A DNA stretch of 64,000 bases, from NCBI GenBank assembly GCA_951406725.2, contig OX597821.1:69378001-69442000 (forward strand), given 5' to 3'. The notes beneath the pieces are model-generated. The model searched no databases, was not told the DNA's origin, and saw only the letters and a program-made list of their open reading frames with translations. This document shows, piece by piece, positions 6,952-59,480 of this stretch. Source of the DNA: Octopus vulgaris. Its lineage: Eukaryota. Positions within the stretch are counted from its first letter, which is position 1. Each line of letters begins with the position of its first letter. The translations under genes and the position numbers were made by a program.

Positions 6952-8306
6952 TCCTGTTTGGTGATAACTAATCATTCCTCTGTTTTCCTTTAGCTGGGCG
7001 AACAAGGTGCTTTCTTCTGTTTGGTGGAAATAATGAAAGGGAACATGTGGTGAAAAAAAATTAAAAGGATTGTTGACAGATAACATTTTTAGCAAGGCCC
7101 TCATCAACTTTTCAAGCTCCACTTTGAATAGGAGGCACTGCTATTCAGCAAATTTGCTGAGAAGTAGCTGAGAGTAACTAGTATGGCTTGAGAGAATGGG
7201 GCTACTTTTAGCATGTGCCTCTAAGCTATACAATACTACCAAGAAGGAAAACTTGCTTCCGGTAATCAAAGTAATTTTGCATCTATGAGGTTCCTTGATT
7301 AGTGCTTGGTGGTTGTTCCCCACCCTATTTTGGAACATCACATTGCATATCTTATATATGCTTTTGTTTTCCCTCCATGTTCTTTTTTTTTTTTTCCTTA
7401 ACCATTTTAATGTAACCCTCTTTCTGCTTTTGTATTGTGTCCTTGTAGTGTCTCCTCATTCATTGCTCTTGTAGCAAATAAAAGAAATTATTACTACTAT
7501 TAGTATTATGGCATACTTGGTCAACTGCCAGTTTTAATCTTGCCAGATTAAATTACCAGATTAAATTTACCATTAACCCCCACTGGGGTTGGTGGTGTCA
7601 TTATCTGGCCACACTACTCGCATGGATTCACATGACTCTCTGTCCAATTCTATTATGAATTTGGATTAGAAGCTTGAGTCACAATGAATCTTTCATTAGC
7701 TGATTACACACCCATGGATGCCACCCCTATGGGTGCGTTACAGTTTCTCTCTTGATAATGTCTGGTGATTCTGACCATTGATCTTCTAAGATTCTTCCAC
7801 TCAGCATCAATGTAGAAGCACCATTAGATCAGTTTGAGCTCTTCCACTGCCTCTTCACCACAATCTGCAGTACCGCAGTCCTGTGACTTTGCTGTATCCC
7901 TGGGTGTCTGAAAGGGTGCTATGCCTTGCCAAAGGACAGCCTCCATTACTATGCAGAGCACAGTCATCGCTCTATGAAGCATTTTCAAAATACATACCAA
8001 AATGACAAAAACTCACTTGGTTTCGAGTTTCTATGTGAATATGGTCTGTGAAAGCACGGCCCTCAATCCTTTCCACAGTCCGTATTCATACTGAAAATCA
8101 AGATGGAGTGAGCTTTTATCTCTGGTAATATAAGTATCAGTAATACACTGAAATTCAAGTCAAATAATTATATCCTTCTCTATAAATTTGTATCTTTGCT
8201 TAAAAATTTGAAACTTTGTGGCAGCGCATGTTATTATCAAATAAATTTTTTAAATCATCATCATCATCATTATTATTTATTATTGTTGTTGTTGTTGTTG
8301 TTTCAG

Positions 8307-10558
8307 GTGCTACCCCTCCAGCTGGTCGACGTGTTCTTCCACCCCTTGATGACTGTGACAAACGGCAGATGGAGATACTACAAAGGAAGTCATCAAGGAA
8401 AAAGAGCCCTGCACCAGTTCCTCCTCAGCGAACAACTTCATTTCGCGGTCCACCTGTGGATACTGCGTCAGAAATGGAGTTTGAGCTGAAGAACAAAATC
8501 AAACAGCAAAAGGCCAAAATTGAGGCCTCAACCCTTCACGAAGACTCAACTGAGCCTCAGGTCACCTTAGAACTGAGCCATCCAGATAATTATATTGGCA
8601 ACAATAGGTTTACCAAAACTAAACATTTGTCATTGAAGGGTAGCTCACCGAAATCCTTCCGACGCCATGACAATGATAAGTACCAGGGAAGCAAGGATGC
8701 CGACGATAACTTTCCTCGCCAAATGACGGAAAGTTTCAAAGGTTCCCATATCGATAAATCAAAATACATAATCTCAGATTTAGGAAATAAAAACCCCAGA
8801 CCACCACCTGGACATCTAAACCATGTGATTCCAGCAGAAATCCGACCCGAGCGTCCCAAGATTGACAAAGAGACGAGCACTAGCGAAGAAAGCATGGAAG
8901 CTGCAGCGGGACATGGTGGTGTTTACCCAAAGGTTGCCCTTTCTCTACCCCATAGGTCGTCCAGTTTTAAGAAGGGCAAGCCACTGACAGATAATCAAGA
9001 CTCTGAAGAAACTGTGGATCAAGAAAATTTTGTCAATGTCGGCAAATTAGATGCGGATAATGTGAAGACAATTGGCCGTTACGGGACTATTCCAAAGGGG
9101 GTGAGGATTGGAGCATATTTTAGGTCAATGGAAGATGAATCAAACCATACTGACCAACGTGAATCTAGCATTGATGATGTTGATTCTGGTACTGATACGG
9201 CCAGTGTGACTTCCTGTCCCCCATTACCACCGACTGCTGACACACCCGGAGATAGTGGTAAAGATGAAGAAAGCAACAATATTGGTATTAAACAGGAGCA
9301 TAATTTAAAGCCTTCTGCAGTTGTTAAATCACAGTCTTCTCAAATGCTTGTTGATAACCCAAAATCTTCATTTACAGGATTACTTCAGCGTCAAAAATCT
9401 GACCTAACCCATGGTAAAGTACAAGGAAGCAAACCCGACTATTCTCCTTCAAAACCTGACAATGGAATGCTTTCAAGTATTTCTCCTGGAGGATCAAAAT
9501 CTGATGATATATCAGAATTAAGCAAGTCAAGAATAAGCCCTCGATTTTCTCATGTGTTTGAAGATAATAAGAAAGAAGAGTTAAAAGAAAACAAAAAGTT
9601 CCAGCATAAACCTTTAAAGTCTCCTGATGAAGGTACATCTGAACTACGCAGCTTCCATAAAGTAGGCCAACCATTTCCCTCAAGGCCCCCCGGTTTGGCC
9701 CACGTTAATGACTCTAGTCCTACGAGTACTGAATCAACATTAGTGAGCAGTCCTGACTCTGTTGTGGAGAGATCCAAAAATGATATCCGTTCACCTCCTC
9801 CCAGACCACCCATCCGTGCACGAGTGTCGTTAGCTGATACTGATGATGGCAGTAGGCTATCAAAAGAAGTCAACGACAACAATGTACCACCTGCTGTCTT
9901 GTCCAAAATGGCCTCCAAAGTGAAGCTACCGTCTCTGCCCCCCAGCAGTGAGGCAGCATCCCTGAAACCCACCGGGCGAGATATAGACAGATCCAAATCA
10001 GATCAGTCCACTGATCGGTTTAGCTCTAATTCTGACTTTACTGCCGGGCACTTGACACCTGGCATTGCTCACAAACCTCCACCAGGTAACCAGAGAGATG
10101 AGCCTCCACCTAAAACTCTGTTTTCTAACTTCCGATCAGCCGCTCTGAGTCACCGCCACATTGATAACGATACGTCCGACAGCAAAAATTCACAAAACAA
10201 TCAATCTGTTGATGATAACTCCAAATCTGAAACACCTGTCACGAAGGATTCAATCATAGAGGCATCGAGCCGACTCGGAGGTCGCATTGATTCCTTGGCA
10301 ACAAGTAGCTCAAAGAGCTCGGGTGAGTTCATGGACTTATCGAAACAGGTGCAAACATATCACGAAATGTGTTCCCAGTTCATTGATTCCTTACCACCTC
10401 ACAGCAAGTTCCAGGGACGAGAATTGTTGAATCGGCTGCATCTGGAGTTACAAAAGTTGAAGACGTTGTCAGGAAGCTGTTTGACCAGCAGCAGCTCCAG
10501 CTTGTTGAATGAAATTCAGTCGACAAATAAAGAAATCCTGCAAGTCATTCAGCGATGA
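8307..10558 (+). CDS. Abl: Abl kinase, large terminal coding exon (PxxP/NLS region, low-complexity linker, F-actin-binding domain)
   Basis: tttcag acceptor, in frame with previous exon. RKKSPAPVPPQRTTSFR resembles ABL KKTAPTPPKRSSSFR; RYGTIPKGVRIGAY resembles the invertebrate Abl motif; C-terminal FIDSLPPHSKFQGRELLNRL...EILQVIQR matches the Abl F-actin-binding bundle ending VQR. TGA at 10556-10558. Confidence 0.93.
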
Positions 10559-33728: not shown

Positions 33729-33732
<4 letters not shown>

Positions 33733-35130
33733 CCTTTGCATTTGATTTTTTGATGTCTTTACCCCCAAACTTTCGTGAGTTGAGTTGAGCAAACACTATA
33801 CGAGAGAGGTTTTCTTTAAGTATTAGAAATAATTTTAAAAAAGTTTTTTAGCTGCTATTTCTAATGAGTTCAGTATGCGGTAAAGTAATTTATTTTACTA
33901 AGCCCTTTTATATAATGTAATAATTTGAATTCGCCTTAAATGGTCCCTTTGCATACTGAACACTTGGTGAAATTGATTAATAATTAATTAATTTTACCCT
34001 CAATTGTTGAAATTATAATTAATCTCCCTCTAATTAATGCTTCGGATTTTACCGAAATAAGCATAGTGTTTGCTGATTTTAACCCACGCTGGTGGAAAGG
34101 GGAGAACAGAAATTCTTCGCTTGCATATTTGGGTTTGTTGGCACTGTTAGTTACGAGCAGATCTTCGAAAGCGATGAGAAGCCGAAAGGGTATGCTCTCA
34201 CTTTCAGTGTTTTCAAATCCAAACCAAGGAGTTTCTGAGCTGATGATAGAAGTGTCGTGTTGACTAATCTTGAAACGTACGTTCTCAAATAACCTTTGCA
34301 TTTGATTTTTTGATGTCTTTACCCCCAAACTTTCGTGAGTTGAGTTGAGCAAACACTATACGAGAGAGGTTTTCTTTAAGTATTAGAAATAGTTTTAAAA
34401 AAGTTTTTTAGCTGCTATTTCTAATGAGTTCAGTATGCGGTAAAGTAATTTATTTTACTAAGCCCTTTTATATAATGTAATAATTTGAATTCGCCTTAAA
34501 TGGTCCCTTTGCATACTGAACACTTGGTGAAATTGATTAATAATTAATTAATTTTACCCTCAATTGTTGAAATTATAATTAATCTCCCTCTAATTAATGC
34601 TTCGGATTTTACCGAAATAAGCATAGTGTTTGCTGATTTTAACCCACGCTGGTGGAAAGGGGAGAACAGAAATTCTTCGCTTGCATATTTGGGTTTGTTG
34701 GCACTGTTAGTTACGAGCAGATCTTCGAAAGCGATGAGAAGCCGAAAGGGTATGCTCTCACTTTCAGTGTTTTCAAATCCAAACCAAGGAGTTTCTGAGC
34801 TGATGATAGAAGTGTCGTGTTGACTAATCTTGAAACGTACGTTCTCAAATAACCTTTGCATTTGATTTTTTGATGTCTTTACCCCCCAAACTTTCGTGAG
34901 TTGAGTTGAGCAAACACTATACGAGAGAGGTTTTCTTTAAGTATTAGAAATAGTTTTAAAAAAATTTTTTAGCTGCTATTTCTAATGAGTTCAGTATGCG
35001 GTAAAGTAATTTATTTTACTAAGCCCTTTTATATAATGTAATAATTTGAATTCGCCTTAAATGGTCCCTTTGCATACTGAACACTTGGTGAAATTGATTA
35101 ATAATTAATTAATTTTACCCTCAATTGTTG

Positions 35131-35138
<8 letters not shown>
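33729..35138 (+). mobile_element. Tandem array of 560-bp units (2.5 copies), one hammerhead per complete unit; retrozyme-like
   Basis: Near-identical units starting 33731, 34291, 34851; (TA)n on both sides; hammerheads at 34236-34287 and 34796-34847. Confidence 0.85.
34236..34287 (+). ncRNA. Type I minimal hammerhead ribozyme (copy 1; copy 2 at 34796-34847)
   Basis: TGAG-CTGATGA-T[AGA..GTC GTGTT GAC..TCT]T-GAAA-C(GTAC)G-TT/CTCA: 4-bp stem I, palindromic stem-III loop, GUU site after 34283. Confidence 0.78.
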
Positions 35139-39096: not shown

Positions 39097-40039
39097 ATAT
39101 ATATATAAATTCAAGCAACACACAGTCACTAATCTTGCAACAAGCAATACATACATACATACATACATACATACATACATACATACATACATACATACAT
39201 ACATACATACATACATGCAAGCATGCCTGCATACATACATACACGCACACACACACTCACACATACACATACACTCGCCCCTCTCTCTCTCACGCACACA
39301 TGATGGACTCTCACGTCGATGACAACGTATGCGGTTTAAACCTATTCCGAACAATCTGTACAAATGATTTGCACACTATGTCACTCTCTACATTAAATCG
39401 ACATTCACTGTCCCACACGTCAGGGGTCGGAGAGATCGCAGAACAACGTGAAGTTAAGTAGTTTGCTCAAGAACACAACGCACCACCTAGTCTGGGAACT
39501 GAAATACGATTGCTAGGTCGTGGGTGCTACACCCGGTTGGATTTGTAATAATTTTCTTCGACCCCTTTAATTCACGATATCGTTTCTATTCTGTGTAAGT
39601 CCGACCTTTTTGTATATAAACATATAGATGGTCATGGTCTCACGAGGTGAAACCATTTAATAATGACTCCGTTCAGAAGGCTGTAACATGTCATTCGATA
39701 AGGGAACACTGTACATTGAATTCATAGAACCATGCTGTAACTTTTGAATAACTCACAAATATATGCAAGTTGAATAATCATAGAAAGTGTTTACAAGTGA
39801 AGGCCATGTTCATCTTCTGTGTATTACCTCATACTTGCTCGATGTCTGCTTGCTGCCGCGTGTCATGTCCTCACTCTCTGGCGTCACGGTGACAAAGAGA
39901 AAGGGCTAAGTGTTGGAACCTTAGCGTTACGTGTACCACCTAGTGGCGAGGTCAACGCAACAACGTGCTTATTCGGAATAAGTTGTTACCGAAATGCAAT
40001 TCGAAAAAGCCCGCTATTTACATAGATATATAAAGGGTG

Positions 40040-41027
40040 AACAGTTCTAGATACTACGTTGGATACGATGGTTGTTCGTCTGGTATGTTGATTTTGTTCA
40101 TTCATTATAAATCTTGAATTATGCTTGCACTGATGAATAAAGAGTGCACGCCACTACACTGATTACGAAATCACAGGTGATCTGCAGCTGAATTCTGTTT
40201 TTAAATGACTTGCTTCAAGAGTTGCATTCGGTACGATATGTTTATTTATTTTAGTAGTTTTGTCTTTAAGAGTCCCTCCTAGAGTGTGGCATTTTTGTGT
40301 ATTAATGCCCTCTATATAATATTTAAAAAAAATTATTTAAGTGAAGAAATTGGTGGATTTTTTCTCTTATGAGGTTTTTCACGCTAACTACTTGATAAAT
40401 TCTTATGAAGATTTTATCCTATTTTTAAATTATAAATTTAACCGGAGTATATTCTACACTGAATTTTTATTCCGAATAAGCATGTTGTTGCCAACAGTTC
40501 TAGATACTACGTTGGATACGATAGTTGTTCGTCTGGTATGTTGATTTTGTTTATTCATTATAAATCTTGAATTATGCTTGCTCTGATGAGTAAAGAGTGC
40601 TCGCCACTGCACTGATTACGAAATCACAGGTGATCTGCAGCTGAATTCTGTTTTTAAATGACTTGCTTCGAGAATTGCATTCGGTACGATGTGTTTATTT
40701 ATTTTAGTAGTTTTGTCTTTAAGAGTCCCTCCTAGCGTGTGGCATTTTTGTGTAATAAAGCCCTCTATATAATATTTAAAAAAAAATATTTAAGTGAAGA
40801 AATTGGTGGATTTTTTCTCTTATGAGGTTTTTCACGCTAACTACTTGATAAATTCTTATGAAGATTTTATCCTATTTTTAAATTATAAATTTAACCGGAG
40901 TATATTCTATACTGAATTTTTATTCCGAATAAGCATGTTCTTGCCAACAGTTCTAGATACTACGTTGGATACGATAGTTGTTCGTCTGGTATGTTGATTT
41001 TTTTCATTCATTATAAATCTTGAATTA
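40040..41027 (+). mobile_element. Tandem array of 453-bp units (2.2 copies) with hammerhead ribozymes; retrozyme-like
   Basis: Units start 40040, 40493, 40946; followed by (GATA)n; hammerheads at 40123-40188 and 40576-40641. Confidence 0.85.
40576..40641 (+). ncRNA. Type I hammerhead ribozyme (copy 2; copy 1 at 40123-40188)
   Basis: GCTTGC(A/T)-CTGATGA-[GTAA..AGTGC..GCACT..TTAC]-GAAA-TCAC(AG)GTGA-TC/TGCAGC; AUC site after 40635 (40182 in copy 1). Confidence 0.8.
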
Positions 41028-41060
41028 GATAGATAGATGGATGGATCGATAGATAAGTGA

Positions 41061-41091
<31 letters not shown>

Positions 41092-43569: not shown

Positions 43570-47732
<4,163 letters not shown>

Positions 47733-48308
47733 TAAGACGAAGAACGCGATTCGATTGTAAGATATTTTATTAGTTGAATGATATTTCAACAGTACCTCTG
47801 TCTTTGTCAAGTTCAAAATAAGAAGTGATAAAAATTCAAGATTACAGAAATTTAAACGTAAAGTATGAACGAGAGCTACAAGCGTCTACACGTTGATGGA
47901 ATGACATCGTCAGTTTTTAGTAACAATTTTATAACAGGTGAAAAGAAAAAGATAGAAAAAAACAGAAAAAAAAGACGATAGAAAAAAGGAAAGAAAAAGA
48001 AAGAAGAATATTTAATCAAACAGTTTTGTATAAATATGATGATGTTCCCCTGCATGTAATCTTTTCACTCCCTTGCATGTAATCTTTTCACTCAGGTACC
48101 ATTAGACCCGACACCGTTTGGAAATCGGTGTTCATTCAAAGTCAGTGTTCAGCTCTGACGATACCGGTATGACTTTGAATAATGATTTTTATACTTCAGA
48201 ATTCCACCTAAACTCATCAAATTGTATTATATATCTTTGCTTTTCTTAACAAAGCCTTTATTTTTTTATATCTAATATTCATTTTCTTTGTTTTCTTTTT
48301 AATTTTAT

Positions 48309-50852: not shown

Positions 50853-51000
<148 letters not shown>

Positions 51001-51001
51001 A

Positions 51002-51480
51002 AGGGCTAAAAACCACTATGTGATCAGCCATATGCTTGAAGTAATGCTTGAAGTAGATCACCTGCGATCAAAATATGTTCTCTAATAGGCAGCATTAACT
51101 GCAGTAAATTATTTTGTTTCCGGAATTTTAGCGCGCCAGAACTCAGACATTTGAAATTAACACAATGTAATCGGTGAAACTAAACACGTGTCTGTTTTTA
51201 TACGGAAAATTAGTGGTTAGTTTTACAAATTATATTACCTGTGAAACGATCGTACTGACGAGCCCTACAGACGATGGATTGCGTAAGTGATTCGTTCGTT
51301 AATAGGCGAAACCTAGGTCTGCGATTAATTCTTGTTTTTTATATAATTTTCATCTGTCTTGCGCGCATATTGTTCTGGTGTCCGCTGAATTTTTTCTCTA
51401 GAGAACATTCTTTTCTTTGTAGTTTGATCGCAGGTGATCTACTTCTAGCATATGGCTGACCACAGTGGTTTTTTAGCCCT
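51002..51480 (+). mobile_element. 479-bp element with ~58-bp inverted termini, TTAA flanks and a central hammerhead ribozyme
   Basis: TTAA|AGGGCTAAAAACCACT...CCTGCGATCAAA (51002-51072, with a 12-bp duplication) versus TTTGATCGCAGG...AGTGGTTTTTTAGCCCT|TTAA (51423-51480). Confidence 0.85.
51248..51326 (+). ncRNA. Type I minimal hammerhead ribozyme, canonical core
   Basis: GATCGTA-CTGACGA-GCC...GGC-GAAA-C(CTAG)G-TC/TGCGATT: 7-bp stem I including G.U pairs, G10.1-C11.1, palindromic loop III, GUC site after 51319. Confidence 0.88.
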
Positions 51481-51600
51481 TTAAATATACATATGTATTA
51501 GAATTTTGTCTGATTCTTCAGATTTTTGTATGCTAGGCTACTGGTTTTAAATTGATATTAATTAAATTAATATTCAATTTACCTCCCTCGTTATTTAAAT

Positions 51601-52469: not shown

Positions 52470-55240
52470 GCCCGATCACAAATCCTTCTTCCTCCACCTT
52501 CACCACCACCTAAAGAAGCACCTTTCCACGCTTCCTTTCCGCTGCTTTCAACCTTCTACTAAAATTTCCCTACTGATTTTCAAAAACACGGTTCTGTAGC
52601 CACGTTTCTTTTCTTAGTCGCTGCCTTCAGCACCACCTCATCCCCAAAGGTTCCTACCTCCATTTCCACCCCACTTTCAACTCTGCTTCTACCATCCTTC
52701 CTATACTCCGTACTACTTCCTACCGCCTTATGCGTATCACCATTCGTTTTAATCTCTCCAAAATACACACCCGCGGCTGCCTTCTCCTCGCTTATTCCAC
52801 CTTTTTCTCCTCTCTTTCACTTTCCTTTACACATTGCAACTTACGCTTCATAATCCATTTAAATCCTTTTTTCCACTAGTTCCTCGCTCGTACTAAGCAA
52901 CATAAACTTCACTCACTCCTTCATTCTGTCCCACCCGATGCCATTACACCCCTCCCCCATAAACTTGCCCCTCATCTTCACCCTAACCCTTCCGTTACTC
53001 TAACCCTCCTACGTACTTACTCCTCCTCTCTCTCCTCCCAGCCTTCCACTATACCCACCACCTCTCCCACGTCTAACTCATCCACCCCTTCCCCCTTCAT
53101 TCTGTTATTACCATCCCTCCTGATCTTCTCTCTGAGGCGGAGCGCTCTCTTCTCAGTAAGGTACTGCGCTTCATCCCCCTCACTCCATTCAGTAACGAAT
53201 TTCAGACTAGTGCCGATATTCATAGCTTTGTTCGCCGCGTCAGGCTATATGCACTATTCCACAACACTCTACCTGCATCTAATGAAGAGGACTGCCTCAC
53301 CAACCTGGGCCGCCGACCATCCCAATGGACACCAGCTCCTGGCCAGTTCCAAGCATTCGATCAGTTTGCAAGCATATGCCAACGTGTTGTGGGCTGGTTT
53401 AACTTTCGCAGGCGTCCCCGATATTTTAGCATCTCCTCGCCCCTACTCTCGGCCCTTCAATTTCTCCGACACCGCAAAAACATCATCATAAAACCGGCTG
53501 ACACGGGTGGAGCCGTAGTGGTGTGGCGCGCAGATCTCTACAAAGCTGAAGCTTCCCGCCAACTTCAAGACACCTCCCTCTATTGCCCTCTGCTCTCCAT
53601 CCTCAAGTCTAACTACCAACAGACTGTGTCCTCCACTATCCATGACCTCATCTCCTCCTCCCGTCTCCCTCTCACCGCCTCTGACCTCAAAGCTCGCACT
53701 CCACGCACTCCCACTGTTTACTTCCTTCCCCAAATCCACAAGCCCAACAACCCTGGCCACCCCATCATCTCCGCCTGTAACTGCTTCATGGAATTAATCT
53801 CATAATACCTCGACTCATAATGTCCTTGCCCCTAGTGGCTTCCCTCCCCTCCTACATCCACGACACTAACCTTGCTCTCCATCTTTTCAATTCTTTCTCC
53901 TTCCCTCCTGGCCCCTCTGAACTTCTCTTCACTCTTGATATCAAGAGTCTATACCTGGTGATCCCACTCAACGAAGGACTTCTTGCACTCAAACACTTCC
54001 TAGACCTTCGATCCAGCCCCCAACTTGATACCTCCATGCTTTTTCGTCTGGCCGAACTTGTTCTCTCCCTCAACTGGTTTTCGTTTGCGAAGGATTTTTA
54101 CCAACCACGGGAATGGCCAAGGGAACGAGAATGGGCCCCAACTATGAGAAACTGTTCGTTGGCTACGTTCAGACCCAGATATTCTCATGATTCACTGCTC
54201 CCACTCCCAAACTATGCAGTCGTTATATTGTTGACTGTATCGGTGCGGCCTCACTCTCCCGCGAACAACTAGATTCCTCCCTCTCTTGTCCAATCCTTCC
54301 ATCCTGCCCTCAAATTCTCCTGCACTATTTCCAACACTTCCGTTGCATTTCTTGACATTTCGGTCAACATACACCACTCAGCTCTCACTATCGCCATCCA
54401 CTACAAGCACAACGATTCATACTCCTGCCTTAATTCCCCCTAACCCCACCCTACCCACATCAAGCTCTCCATCCCCTACTCCCACTCTGCGCAGGAATTT
54501 TGGCACTCAGTTTCGACTCATGAGTCACCACATCATCCTTCGTGGATATCCCCTCACCACTATCCACACAACCCTTGCTAGAGCACATTCGGTGGATCGT
54601 GCCTCTGCTCTCTTACTCCGCACCCGCCCCGCCGTTACCCACCCGTGTTTCCCCTCACCTACGACCCCTCCACTCTGCCCATCCAACGCACCATTCTCCG
54701 CGCCTTCCAGCGACTACAGTCCGACCCCTCCACCTCGCCCATCTTCTCCAACCTACCCCTTCCCTCCACCAAACGAGCCCACAACCTGCGTGACCTCCTG
54801 GTCCACAGTTTCTTCCTAACCCCACCGCCCAGCCTGGCTCGTTCTCCTGCTCCCGCTCACACTGCTGCACTTGCGCCACCTCTACAACGCCACCATCCCC
54901 ACAGGCACCCATCATCGTCCCTATCATCCTTTACCTGCACTTCTAGCAACGTCATTTACTGCATCTCTTGTTCTTTCTGCCCTTCTTTGTACATCTGTCA
55001 AACGGGACGCCGCTTGACCGACCGGTTTACGGAGCACCTACGAGACCTCAGACGCGGCAATGACACACCGGTCTTGCACCATTTCTGCTCTACCAGTCAT
55101 TCACTACAACACCTGTCTGTGTTCGGATTGTCTTTGTACAGGGTCCATCCGGATTTCCGCCTTCGCCGTGAACAATAATAAATCCTCTCTCTTCGCTTTG
55201 AATCACATGGGCTCAACTCCCCCTCCTCTCCGCATCTGAC
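52470..55240 (+). mobile_element. Penelope-like element (RT + GIY-YIG endonuclease), decayed
   Basis: IIIKPADTGGAVVVW, YFLPQIHKPNNPGHPIISACN, LFTLDIKSLY..IP, GTRMGPNYEKLFVG, FTCTSSNVIYCISC..C..LYICQTGRRLTDRFTEH; C-rich strand; stops and frameshifts. Confidence 0.9.
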
Positions 55241-56678: not shown

Positions 56679-58302
56679 CAGTTGCGGCCAAAATGTTCAG
56701 AACGACATTGTTTTCGTCATAAAAGTAAGTATAAGTTTTTATCAAAGTTGTTTTATATTCTATAATTTTTACAGAAAATAAATACAATATTAATTGTTAT
56801 TGTCTGAGATTTTGGTGTAATTTGAGAGGATAATACAAAAGGTATGGATGATTTAGTGATTTACTGCAAAACCCATGGCGGCCAAAATGATCAGAACGGT
56901 TGAAAAAATAACAAAATAATCAAAAATGACAGAGAATACTGGAATTATTTAATATTTAGTGTGCAGCCCTTTAGCTTCAATCACACTCTGACATCTTCGA
57001 CTGCATGAGGAAATTAAATTTTCAATTTCTTGCTGGGTGATCTTATTCCATTCTTCCTGAAGGGCATTCCATAATTGCTCAGTTGTTTTAGGATTTCTGG
57101 CTTTCGAACGTTCTCCAAGAATATTCCATACATTTTCAATAGGATTGAGATCTGGGCTTTGAACAGGCCAATCCATAACATCAACCTTTTCAGCCTTGAG
57201 GAAGTTCATGACCACCTTAGCCTTGTGACATGGGGCATTGTCCTGCATGAATATGGGTGGTCGTTTAGTTGAATTTCTCAGCACAGGCAAGACATGATCT
57301 TTTACAAGTTGTTTATAAACTCCTGCATTTACCTTTCCCTGTAATCGCACCAAAGGGCCTACACCATCTCCAGATATCATCCCCCAAACCATGACACTTC
57401 CTCCACCGAATTTAACACTAGTCTTAAGGCATTTAGGCGACAATTTTTCACCTACTTTTCTACGGACGTACCTTTTCCCATCTGAGCCAAATAACATAAA
57501 CTTCGATTCATCACTGAAATGCACCGTTTGCCATTTTTCTTGAGACCACAACACATGTTCGGTTTCAAAGGTAAGACGACACTTTTTATTCTTGGAGCTG
57601 ATCAGTGGCTTCACTGCAGGTGCTCTTGCTTGTAGGTCATGTTCAACTAAACGACGAGACACAGTTTTTCGAGATAAAGTTTTCTTCAATACAATGCTCA
57701 TTTTCCGAGAAACAGCAGCAGCAGTTTTAAATCTGTCCTTTTTAACCAACTTTACCATAGCACGATCTTCTCTCTTGGTCGTTTTTCTTGGCCTACCTGT
57801 AAACTCTCTTGCTTCACACGAACCACAATCATCGTAGACCTTAAGAATACCGTGTACAACACTTTTTGACTTGTTAACAATTTTTGCAGTAGATCCAATA
57901 CTTAAATTATCCTTCCTTCGAAGCTTAATAATCTGCTGACGAATTGGTAACGGAGTAAGTGGCATTATATTAACAAAGTACACTGCAAATATTCTTACTA
58001 ATGTTTAGTAAACGAACCGTCACGTAAACAAATTCAAAACATTATCGCCAGTTAAATATACTAAAACACGGAGTAAAAGCAACCGTTCTGATCATTTTGG
58101 CCGCCATGGGTTTGCAGTAAATCACTAAATCATCCATAACTTTTGTATTATCCTCTCAAATTACACCAAAATCTCAGGCAATAACAAATAATATCGTATT
58201 TATTGTCTGTGAAAATTATAGAATATAAAACAACTTTGATAAAAAAGTATATCTACGTTTCTGACGAAACCAATGCCGTTCTGAACATTTTGGCCGCCAC
58301 TG
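56679..58302 (-). mobile_element. Complete Tc1-family transposon, IR/DR type, 1624 bp
   Basis: TA TSD (56677-56678, 58303-58304); CAGT...ACTG ends; ~223-bp TIRs (56679-56902, 58080-58302), each with outer and inner GCGGCCAAAATG(T/A)TCAGAACG direct repeats. Confidence 0.96.
56949..57965 (-). CDS. Tc1-like DD34E transposase, uninterrupted ORF (338 aa from the first ATG)
   Basis: HTH-like N-terminus, GRPRK motif, FSDESKF, MVWG, QDNAPCH, SPDLNPIENVW; 34 residues between the second D and E. Confidence 0.93.
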   Translation of the reverse strand: MPLTPLPIRQQIIKLRRKDNLSIGSTAKIVNKSKSVVHGILKVYDDCGSCEAREFTGRPRKTTKREDRAMVKLVKKDRFKTAAAVSRKMSIVLKKTLSRKTVSRRLVEHDLQARAPAVKPLISSKNKKCRLTFETEHVLWSQEKWQTVHFSDESKFMLFGSDGKRYVRRKVGEKLSPKCLKTSVKFGGGSVMVWGMISGDGVGPLVRLQGKVNAGVYKQLVKDHVLPVLRNSTKRPPIFMQDNAPCHKAKVVMNFLKAEKVDVMDWPVQSPDLNPIENVWNILGERSKARNPKTTEQLWNALQEEWNKITQQEIENLISSCSRRCQSVIEAKGLHTKY

Positions 58303-59084: not shown

Positions 59085-59480
59085 GAATTTACAAAAACAA
59101 AAGACGAAGACGGGTATGTAAACAACAAACAGATATATTAGCTTAACGATCGGGAAGTGAAAAAGTCTTTCACGTTTGAGCTACGCTCTTCGGTAGAAAG
59201 GAACACAGAAAAAAAAAAACAGGGAGAAAAAATAGGAAAGCTTTATATATATATATATGTATATAAAGTTAATCCAAACATGAAAACACAAAGAGAAAAT
59301 GCAACTACGCGAGGACGTGGAACAAGTATAGTGTTATTGGACGCTCAGGAAAGGAAAGAAAGAAGGGGGATCTAACGTTTCGAGCGGAACTCTTCGTCAG
59401 AAACATAGGAAAAGGACCAAGGAAGGGGTGATGGAGGAAAAAAAAATCGCCAACGATACAGACGCGGTCACATATTGAAT
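59085..59480 (-). mobile_element. Two Penelope pLTR-like short repeats separated by (TA)n
   Basis: 59085-59225 is the reverse complement of the 49990-50126 family; 59255-59480 carries a minimal hammerhead. Confidence 0.6.
59370..59404 (-). ncRNA. Minimal type I hammerhead (Penelope type)
   Basis: Minus strand GTTT-CTGACGA-A-GAGT(TCC)GCTC-GAAA-CG-TT/AGAT; stem III reduced to palindromic ACGT. Confidence 0.65.

What the first reader, a model, noticed from the sequence alone, without database searches (positions are those of the whole stretch)
40040..41027. 453-bp hammerhead array with complementary defects in its two ribozymes
Seen: copy 1 has a fully paired stem I (TGCA/TGCA) but A at 10.1 and a stem II mismatch; copy 2 has G10.1-C11.1 and the paired AGTGC/GCACT stem but a U-U at the base of stem I. 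Their consensus is a complete hammerhead with an AUC site and a stem III (TCAC-AG-GTGA) whose 2-nt loop suggests dimeric folding. The array stops just before a third ribozyme and runs into (GATA)n. Inference: an older retrozyme insertion from a second family.
Basis: partly seen in the sequence, partly recalled or inferred. Interest (0 to 1): 0.75.

Follow-up and report, generated by a model that had tools for sequence, protein, structure and literature searches.

The report
Decayed, locally duplicated hammerhead retrozyme copy
This is an ageing copy of a common ~500-base jumping repeat that carries a predicted self-cutting RNA and was likely pasted in by a Penelope-type enzyme; its 453-base period likely comes from a local deletion plus duplication, and the two "complementary" flaws are likely ordinary mutation.

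Summary
The array and both hammerhead defects are real, but the 453-bp period and the "complementarity" are local accidents. The element starts at ~39,957 with a short inverted arm. It belongs to a dispersed family with a ~500-nt unit; the 50 nt at 39,990-40,039 are missing only at this locus's two internal junctions (2 matches genome-wide, both here). The family's type I hammerhead is intact at the majority state and shows compensatory pairs against a 76%-identical sister subfamily. 56 of 68 sampled family ribozymes carry a defect. The window's four ribozyme changes are each confined to one unit, and the two named defects lie 5' of GAAA, so a stem III-swapped dimer could not complement them. 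Family insertions are 5'-truncated partial tandems, often with inverted arms, ending in (TA)n at two internal unit positions and mostly reading through the cleavage site. That is a Penelope-like (Neptune-type) footprint, most simply on a circular RNA. An intact TA-targeting Neptune-type element exists in the genome but shares no real sequence with the unit. Verdict: a new member of the known animal non-LTR retrozymes; this locus is a decayed copy. Cleavage and circles are untested.

The parts
39957..39981 (-). short inverted arm of the insertion (unit positions r478-502; r1 = 39990)
   Evidence: blastn hit on the minus strand; 33 of 69 family loci have a 5' inverted arm
39982..40039 (+). 5'-most direct piece, including the 50 nt (r1-50) that the family unit has and the two internal junctions lack
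   Evidence: present between units in family loci; 43 of 69 loci show the r503-r1 junction; the same family junction is seen in contigs of the 4 runs laid
40040..40492 (+). unit 1 (r51-503)
40116..40195 (+). type I hammerhead, copy 1; predicted cut 40182|40183; A at 10.1 (40137) and stem II mismatch (40156)
40478..40502 (+). locus-specific deletion junction r503|r51 (repeated at 40931-40955)
   Evidence: pattern found 2 times in 2.8 Gb, both here; a contig of run X17 and one of run X18 cross the second junction with 0 differences
40493..40945 (+). unit 2 (r51-503), likely a later local duplicate
40569..40648 (+). type I hammerhead, copy 2; predicted cut 40635|40636; U-U at the base of stem I (40582) and opened loop-closing pair (40601)
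40946..41027 (+). partial third unit (r51-132), the 3' end of the insertion; an atypical end for the family
41028..41089 (+). GATA-type microsatellite at the 3' end (likely target, or end point of a later deletion)

Best explanation
The array is a decayed copy of a dispersed, protein-less ~500-nt repeat family with a predicted self-cleaving type I hammerhead, likely copied from a circular RNA into TA-rich microsatellites by a Neptune-type Penelope-like element, and its 453-bp period likely arose at this locus by a 50-bp deletion followed by a tandem duplication. Shown: family, unit, insertion anatomy, locus-specific junction, private defects. Inferred steps: (1) copies longer than one unit are transcribed; two ribozymes likely pair through the self-complementary stem III and cut out a monomer, which a host ligase would circularise; in the monomer the core is predicted to be paired and off. 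(2) A PLE endonuclease would nick (TA)n, and the free DNA end would prime inside the RNA at one of two TA-like sites (r~333, r~445); RT runs through the ligated cleavage site and past one unit, and a second priming gives the inverted arm. (3) Here a deletion left an 82-bp terminal repeat (r51-132), unequal exchange likely added one 453-bp unit, and each unit then mutated neutrally. Both ribozymes are likely impaired and would not rescue each other.
For: Family: 3394 first-look candidates, best other copies 87-93% identical; 280 exact matches to a 25-mer. Of 69 unique loci, 63 run into a microsatellite at the 3' end, 59 end at r324-336 or r440-451, 33 have inverted arms, 68 span the cleavage site (sample chosen by hits, so the last figure is biased). 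In a sample anchored just 3' of the cut, 75 of 84 matches extend >=15 nt upstream, 37 of 84 reach >=203 nt upstream (to or past the unit junction), 3 matches in 2 loci span two or more cuts, and 75 of 84 end at the two sites. Compensatory stem II pairs between subfamilies A and B (U-A/C-G, G-C/A-U). Circular folds of 8 natural units z -1.7 to -6.5 on the ribozyme strand (14 shuffles each). Monomer P(A15.1-U16.1) <=0.02 in 11 of 11 copies, stem III duplex gain 11-12 kcal/mol. Intact 781-codon RT + CxxxxCxxC + GIY-YIG elements ending in (TA)n, 6 of 6. Local duplication: junction unique; 5'-most turn keeps the 50 nt; about 8 rare states shared by both units plus 7 and 8 private; the inverted arm has the family C at r494 where both units have T; arms of other insertions differ by a median 6.7% (4 of 31 below 3.5%) against 3.0% here; units 2 and 3 share A at r81, as unequal exchange predicts.
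Against: No autonomous element sharing the unit's sequence was found in 30 + 30 + 6 PLE loci; the only strong hit was a family copy inserted next to one of them. Cleavage, circles and expression are untested. 9 of 84 copies stop within 14 nt upstream of the anchor, 4 within 2 nt of the cut (about 1.4 expected on a rough hazard, p~0.05), which hints that some templates were linear. 4 of 31 other insertions are as little diverged as the window's units, so a young single-step insertion is not excluded. The r132 end is unique among 69 loci and unexplained. Nearest-neighbour energies ignore tertiary contacts and often miss active hammerhead folds.
Confidence: 0.7

Rival explanations
1. Same family and same PLE mobilisation, but the template is a linear, uncleaved transcript of partial-tandem copies (like non-autonomous Chlamys/MRC1 elements), with no circular RNA; the ribozyme only trims transcripts.
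For: Autonomous PLEs form partial tandems and inverted arms without any shown circle (PMC8557442, passages). The intact PLE here also has two alternative 3' ends. A weak excess of 5' ends lies at the cut.
Against: No unique 5' or 3' end of the unit. One insertion spans about 2.7 units (L224) while no array longer than 3 units appears among the first 100 listed of 280 or of 199 pattern matches. Selection kept both the ribozyme fold and a strand-specific whole-unit fold.
Confidence: 0.2
2. The 453-bp array was written in one reverse-transcription event, from a 453-nt deletion-variant circle or by repeated template jumps at the same point, with no later DNA duplication.
For: Two identical junctions in a row; 4 of 31 other insertions are as little diverged; states at r55 and r61 are shared by all three turns.
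Against: The 5'-most turn keeps the 50 nt; the junction exists nowhere else; the inverted arm has the family base at r494 where both units share the derived one.
Confidence: 0.07
3. The two defects are functional and complementary: the two ribozymes make one active heterodimer.
For: Stem III is self-complementary and predicted to dimerise.
Against: In a stem III-swapped dimer each site keeps its own 5' strand (stem I 5' half, core, stem II, GAAA), where both defects lie (inference from the topology in PMC4209133 Fig. 1A legend). The defects are rare or absent in the family (A10.1 2 of 51; U2.1 0 of 51); 56 of 68 copies are defective; no enrichment or depletion of change in the ribozyme (p=0.33).
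Confidence: 0.03

Closest known systems
Metazoan non-LTR retrozymes (Cervera and de la Pena 2020, PMC7229834: coral 220-240 bp, mussel 350-390 bp, axolotl 330/350 bp; Li, Clavereau and Pollet, 10.64898/2026.07.22.740005)
   Same: Non-coding, AT-rich, a few hundred bp, one large type I hammerhead per unit, dimer-prone stem III, no LTR/PBS/PPT seen, co-occurs with PLEs, mostly monomer-to-dimer copies.
   Different: Unit ~500 bp, above the 150-450 bp range given in PMC7229834 though within the 51-972 bp of the preprint; insertions end in (TA)n at two internal sites, with inverted arms and no large target duplications noted; circles and cleavage not shown here; no homology to a PLE pLTR found.
Neptune-type Penelope-like elements and non-autonomous PLEs such as MRC1 (Craig et al. 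2021, PMC8557442)
   Same: 5' truncation, partial tandems, adjacent inverted copy, microsatellite targeting, alternative 3' ends.
   Different: No ORF; a large canonical-type rather than minimal hammerhead; only a ~12-nt resemblance (seen by eye, untested) to the 3' end of the intact element in this genome.
Dimeric hammerheads of newt satellite 2 / axolotl HHR_Amex (as described in PMC7229834 and PMC4209133)
   Same: Self-complementary stem III that favours a two-ribozyme fold.
   Different: Stem III here can form 4 bp as a monomer; stem II is longer (4 + 6 bp with an internal loop).

Membership tests
Type I hammerhead ribozyme | CUGANGA / GAAA / UH core with three stems, open at stem I | tested here: met
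   core intact in 50 of 68 family copies and in both window copies
Type I hammerhead ribozyme | Compensatory base changes in the stems | tested here: met
   4 pairs with changes on both sides in 14 hand-picked copies; 2 are subfamily-wide and count as single events
Type I hammerhead ribozyme | Rfam hammerhead model match | tested here: not met
   no hit at gathering score or E<=10
Type I hammerhead ribozyme | Self-cleavage after UH | not testable with these tools
   needs in vitro transcription
Metazoan non-LTR retrozyme | Short non-coding repeat unit with one type I HHR, in tandem | tested here: met
   longest open frame in subfamily A units is at shuffle level
Metazoan non-LTR retrozyme | Dispersed multicopy family with signs of retrotransposition | tested here: met
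Metazoan non-LTR retrozyme | Stable self-paired fold of the unit as a circle | tested here: met
   z -1.7 to -6.5 in 8 natural units; window's 453-nt units -2.3 and -2.4
Metazoan non-LTR retrozyme | Expressed as monomeric linear and circular RNA | tested here: inconclusive
   only contigs of runs guessed to be RNA were available; they hold mixed family variants and cannot show circles, strand or level
Active retrozyme (definition of 10.64898/2026.07.22.740005) | [quoted passage not shown] | tested here: inconclusive
   both cores are complete but each has stem defects at the junction; their descriptor was not run
Non-autonomous PLE | 5' truncation, partial tandem, inverted 5' copy, microsatellite target | tested here: met
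   against PMC8557442
Non-autonomous PLE | Sequence homology to the pLTR or 3' end of an autonomous PLE | tested here: inconclusive
   none in 66 PLE loci taken from 14119 and 6136 candidates; other PLE families not sampled
Autonomous PLE | RT + GIY-YIG ORF between the repeats | tested here: not met
   units abut directly

The most novel reading that the evidence does not exclude
The family's insertions are a genomic record of a Neptune-type PLE priming inside a covalently closed ~500-nt RNA at two TA-like sites and running round it, with a ribozyme that is switched off in the monomer (core paired to its own stem III strand) and on only as a dimer; hundreds of dated copies in two subfamilies would make the proposed circle-templated route of animal retrozymes directly testable.
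Probability: 0.5. Interest if true: 0.55.

Novelty: new member of a known kind. Interest (0 to 1): 0.3.

Why it matters
The locus itself is an ordinary fossil and a warning: a tandem period at one locus need not be the element's unit, and defects that look complementary are expected when two copies decay apart. The family matters modestly: PLE mobilisation of animal retrozymes is proposed in PMC7229834 and argued from co-occurrence and pLTR homology in the 2026 preprint, and this family adds insertion-scar evidence (TA targeting, twin arms, internal priming, read-through of the cut). Other agents of this scan reported the same picture from younger copies in this genome, so this locus adds little beyond an older subfamily and the local duplication history.

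Tried and rejected
Rfam gave no hammerhead hit; the two weak GlsR7 snoRNA matches (E 0.05, 7.8) are rejected as chance. A cluster of three sister-family ribozymes 3.3-3.5 kb apart (L167) looked like a full-length PLE but is a segmental duplication without a PLE ORF. The abundant PLE family related to window 53-55 kb shares no sequence with the unit (0 hits below E 0.01 in 30 loci), and a simple pattern found a hammerhead-like string downstream in 2 of 30 only. An antisense frame of 139-172 codons in sister subfamily B (0 of 200 shuffles for 2 of 4 units) was rejected as coding: 8 synonymous against 21 other diagnostic changes, frame not kept in subfamily A, no Pfam hit. Expression: no RNA holder on record was listed; contigs of runs guessed to be RNA hold family pieces but say nothing on circles or level. 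A direct energy calculation of the swapped dimer crashed and was replaced by separate stem III energies. One alignment held a wrong stretch and was redone. Look-ups of earlier findings by place (near) and by sequence returned nothing. Paper searches listed no description of this family or of cephalopod retrozymes; the library lacks most subscription papers, and supplements of the four papers were not opened, so family lists there may bear on novelty.

Full report
Observation. The array is at 40040-41027, period 453, 2.2 copies, 96%. Units 1 and 2 differ at 15 positions without indels. Each full unit holds a type I hammerhead (core at 40130 and 40583, AUC site, predicted cuts 40182|40183 and 40635|40636). 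Copy 2 has one more change (40601) that opens the loop-closing pair of stem II. Rfam does not recognise the motif.

The element is larger than the array and its unit is ~500 bp. A genome search with unit 2 gave 3394 first-look candidates, 40 scored, other copies at 87-93%; candidates are not copy numbers. In these copies about 50 more bases lie between the end and the start of the window's unit, and the window carries them once, at 39990-40039, preceded by an inverted arm at 39957-39981. I number the unit r1-503 from 39990. The window's r503|r51 junction matched twice in 2.8 Gb, both here. One contig each of runs X17 and X18 (different organism codes, same study; X17 may be the source sample) crosses the second junction with no difference, so it is not an assembly slip.

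Family anatomy. Among 69 unique loci end 3' at r440-451 and 22 at r324-336, 63 run into a microsatellite, 33 have a 5' inverted arm, 43 show the r503-r1 junction and 68 span the cleavage site. These samples were picked by best hit, so I drew another with a 25-mer just 3' of the cut: 280 matches genome-wide, 100 listed; 84 matches were measured in 79 loci, most listed places already held from earlier calls being left out, and four loci (L171, L186-188) look like duplicates of one insertion. 75 of 84 extend 15 nt or more upstream, through the cut; 37 reach 203 nt or more, to or past the unit junction; 3 matches in 2 loci span two or more cuts, one about 2.7 units; 49 end at r320-359 and 26 at r440-459. 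Nine stop within 14 nt of the anchor, four of them within 2 nt of the cut, against about 1.4 on a rough hazard (p~0.05): a weak hint of some linear templates. Truncated partial tandems, inverted arms and microsatellite targets are the described marks of PLE insertion (PMC8557442, passages).

The ribozyme was under selection in the lineage but not at this locus. The family majority has A2.1, G10.1 and a paired stem II (49 of 51, 47 of 51, 48 of 54). Of 68 family ribozymes 50 keep the core and 12 pass all stem tests. A sister subfamily B (199 exact matches to a 21-mer; about 76% identical over the whole unit, unit 492-497 bp) differs by compensatory pairs in stem II; on 14 hand-picked copies 94.6% of cells pair, against 23-46% for slid controls (related sequences, so two events, not 11). 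Eight natural units folded as circles give z -1.7 to -6.5 and are more stable on the ribozyme strand. In the window 4 of 15 unit-specific changes fall in the ribozyme, as neutral change predicts (p=0.33).

Dimer question. Stem III is predicted at +0.4 kcal/mol as a 4-bp hairpin and -11.2 as an intermolecular duplex. In 11 of 11 copies the monomer's active fold is predicted rare, and in several intact A copies the core pairs with the 5' strand of stem III. This fits the known rule of cleavage in multimers and silence in monomers (PMC4209133, passages), but it is a prediction without tertiary contacts. In such a dimer only the strand 3' of the stem III loop is exchanged; both named defects lie 5' of GAAA, so each site would keep its defect (inference).

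Origin of the 453 period. A 453-nt circle would also skip r1-50 in the 5'-most turn, which it does not. Units 1 and 2 share about 8 states rare in the family (e.g. r274 0 of 60, r466 0 of 26, r494 1 of 24; I set aside two subfamily-level states, two gap columns in an AT run and one unit-3-only column) and have 7 and 8 private ones. The inverted arm has the family C at r494 where both units have T. Two pieces of one insertion differ by a median 6.7% in 31 other loci (4 below 3.5%) against 3.0% here. Units 2 and 3 share A at r81. The simplest history is insertion, 50-bp deletion, unequal exchange between the 82-bp repeats, then decay (inferred). The r132 end into GATA repeats is unique in the sample and unexplained.

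Partner. The genome holds intact elements with a 781-codon frame (RVT_1 and GIY-YIG, CxxxxCxxC linker, hence Neptune-type by PMC8557442), which end in (TA)n in 6 of 6 fetched copies, two of them about 40 nt further on. They share no significant sequence with the unit; neither does the other abundant PLE family. The partner is therefore a candidate by target and anatomy only.

Comparison. It works like, and by the testable features is, a metazoan non-LTR retrozyme (PMC7229834, parts 2-4 of 6 read; preprint 10.64898/2026.07.22.740005, parts 1-3 of 5 read). Cleavage and circular RNA, both defining, are untested; run contigs could not decide. Searches listed no paper on this family; supplements were not opened. 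The host looks cephalopod-like (recalled repeats; earlier notes say the same). After forming this reading I found that 249 notes of this scan in the same genome fit the words, and the 8 shown reach the same picture for 360- and 485-495-bp families; these are unchecked AI notes, not support, and I could not tell whether any is this same family (one search gave no sequence match).

Verdict. Real, a new member of a known kind, and at this locus a decayed and locally duplicated copy. Interest 0.3.

Noticed in passing
window 33729-35138 (+): Young 560-bp hammerhead array, about 2.5 units at 99.6% identity, palindromic stem III, flanked by (TA)n; distant homolog of the finding's unit (66% over 102 nt) with the same TA-rich 3' end; its 5' end lies a few bases after the predicted cut.
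   Followed up: partly
window 50997-51485 (+), core at 51255: Third hammerhead-bearing element with a long stem II, palindromic stem III and inverted ends, next to (TA)n.
   Followed up: no
window about 59340-59400 (-): Minimal PLE-type hammerhead-like motif.
   Followed up: no
window 53077-55178 (+): Frameshifted Penelope-like RT and GIY-YIG remnant; its family has 14119 first-look candidates in the genome.
   Followed up: partly
L279-L284 (e.g. L281:1342-3687): Young intact Neptune-type PLE family, 781-codon frame, ending in (TA)n; about 100 nt before its 3' end is a minimal hammerhead-like motif with a variant UUGAUAA core and palindromic stem III, seen by eye and untested.
   Followed up: partly
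L118:1241-1759 (+), sister subfamily B: Antisense frame open for a whole unit (172 codons; 139 and 152 in two other copies), longer than 200 shuffles, yet without coding-type constraint or Pfam match.
   Followed up: yes
window 8204-10558 (+): 784-codon exon ending in an F_actin_bind domain, likely the last exon of an Abl-type kinase (name recalled).
   Followed up: no
window 56949-58004 (-): Uninterrupted 351-codon Tc1-type transposase frame (DDE_3, HTH_Tnp_Tc3_2).
   Followed up: no
window 44761-47885 (-): Broken non-LTR retrotransposon with RVT_1.
   Followed up: no
window 40485-40497 and 40938-40950: The locus-specific deletion junction is the centre of a short perfect inverted repeat at the first junction, and the base two places before it differs from the family; possibly a fold-back-templated repair.
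   Followed up: no
L167 (G000:C8:100865500-100875400): 3.4-kb direct and inverted segmental duplications whose breakpoints fall in subfamily B copies.
   Followed up: partly
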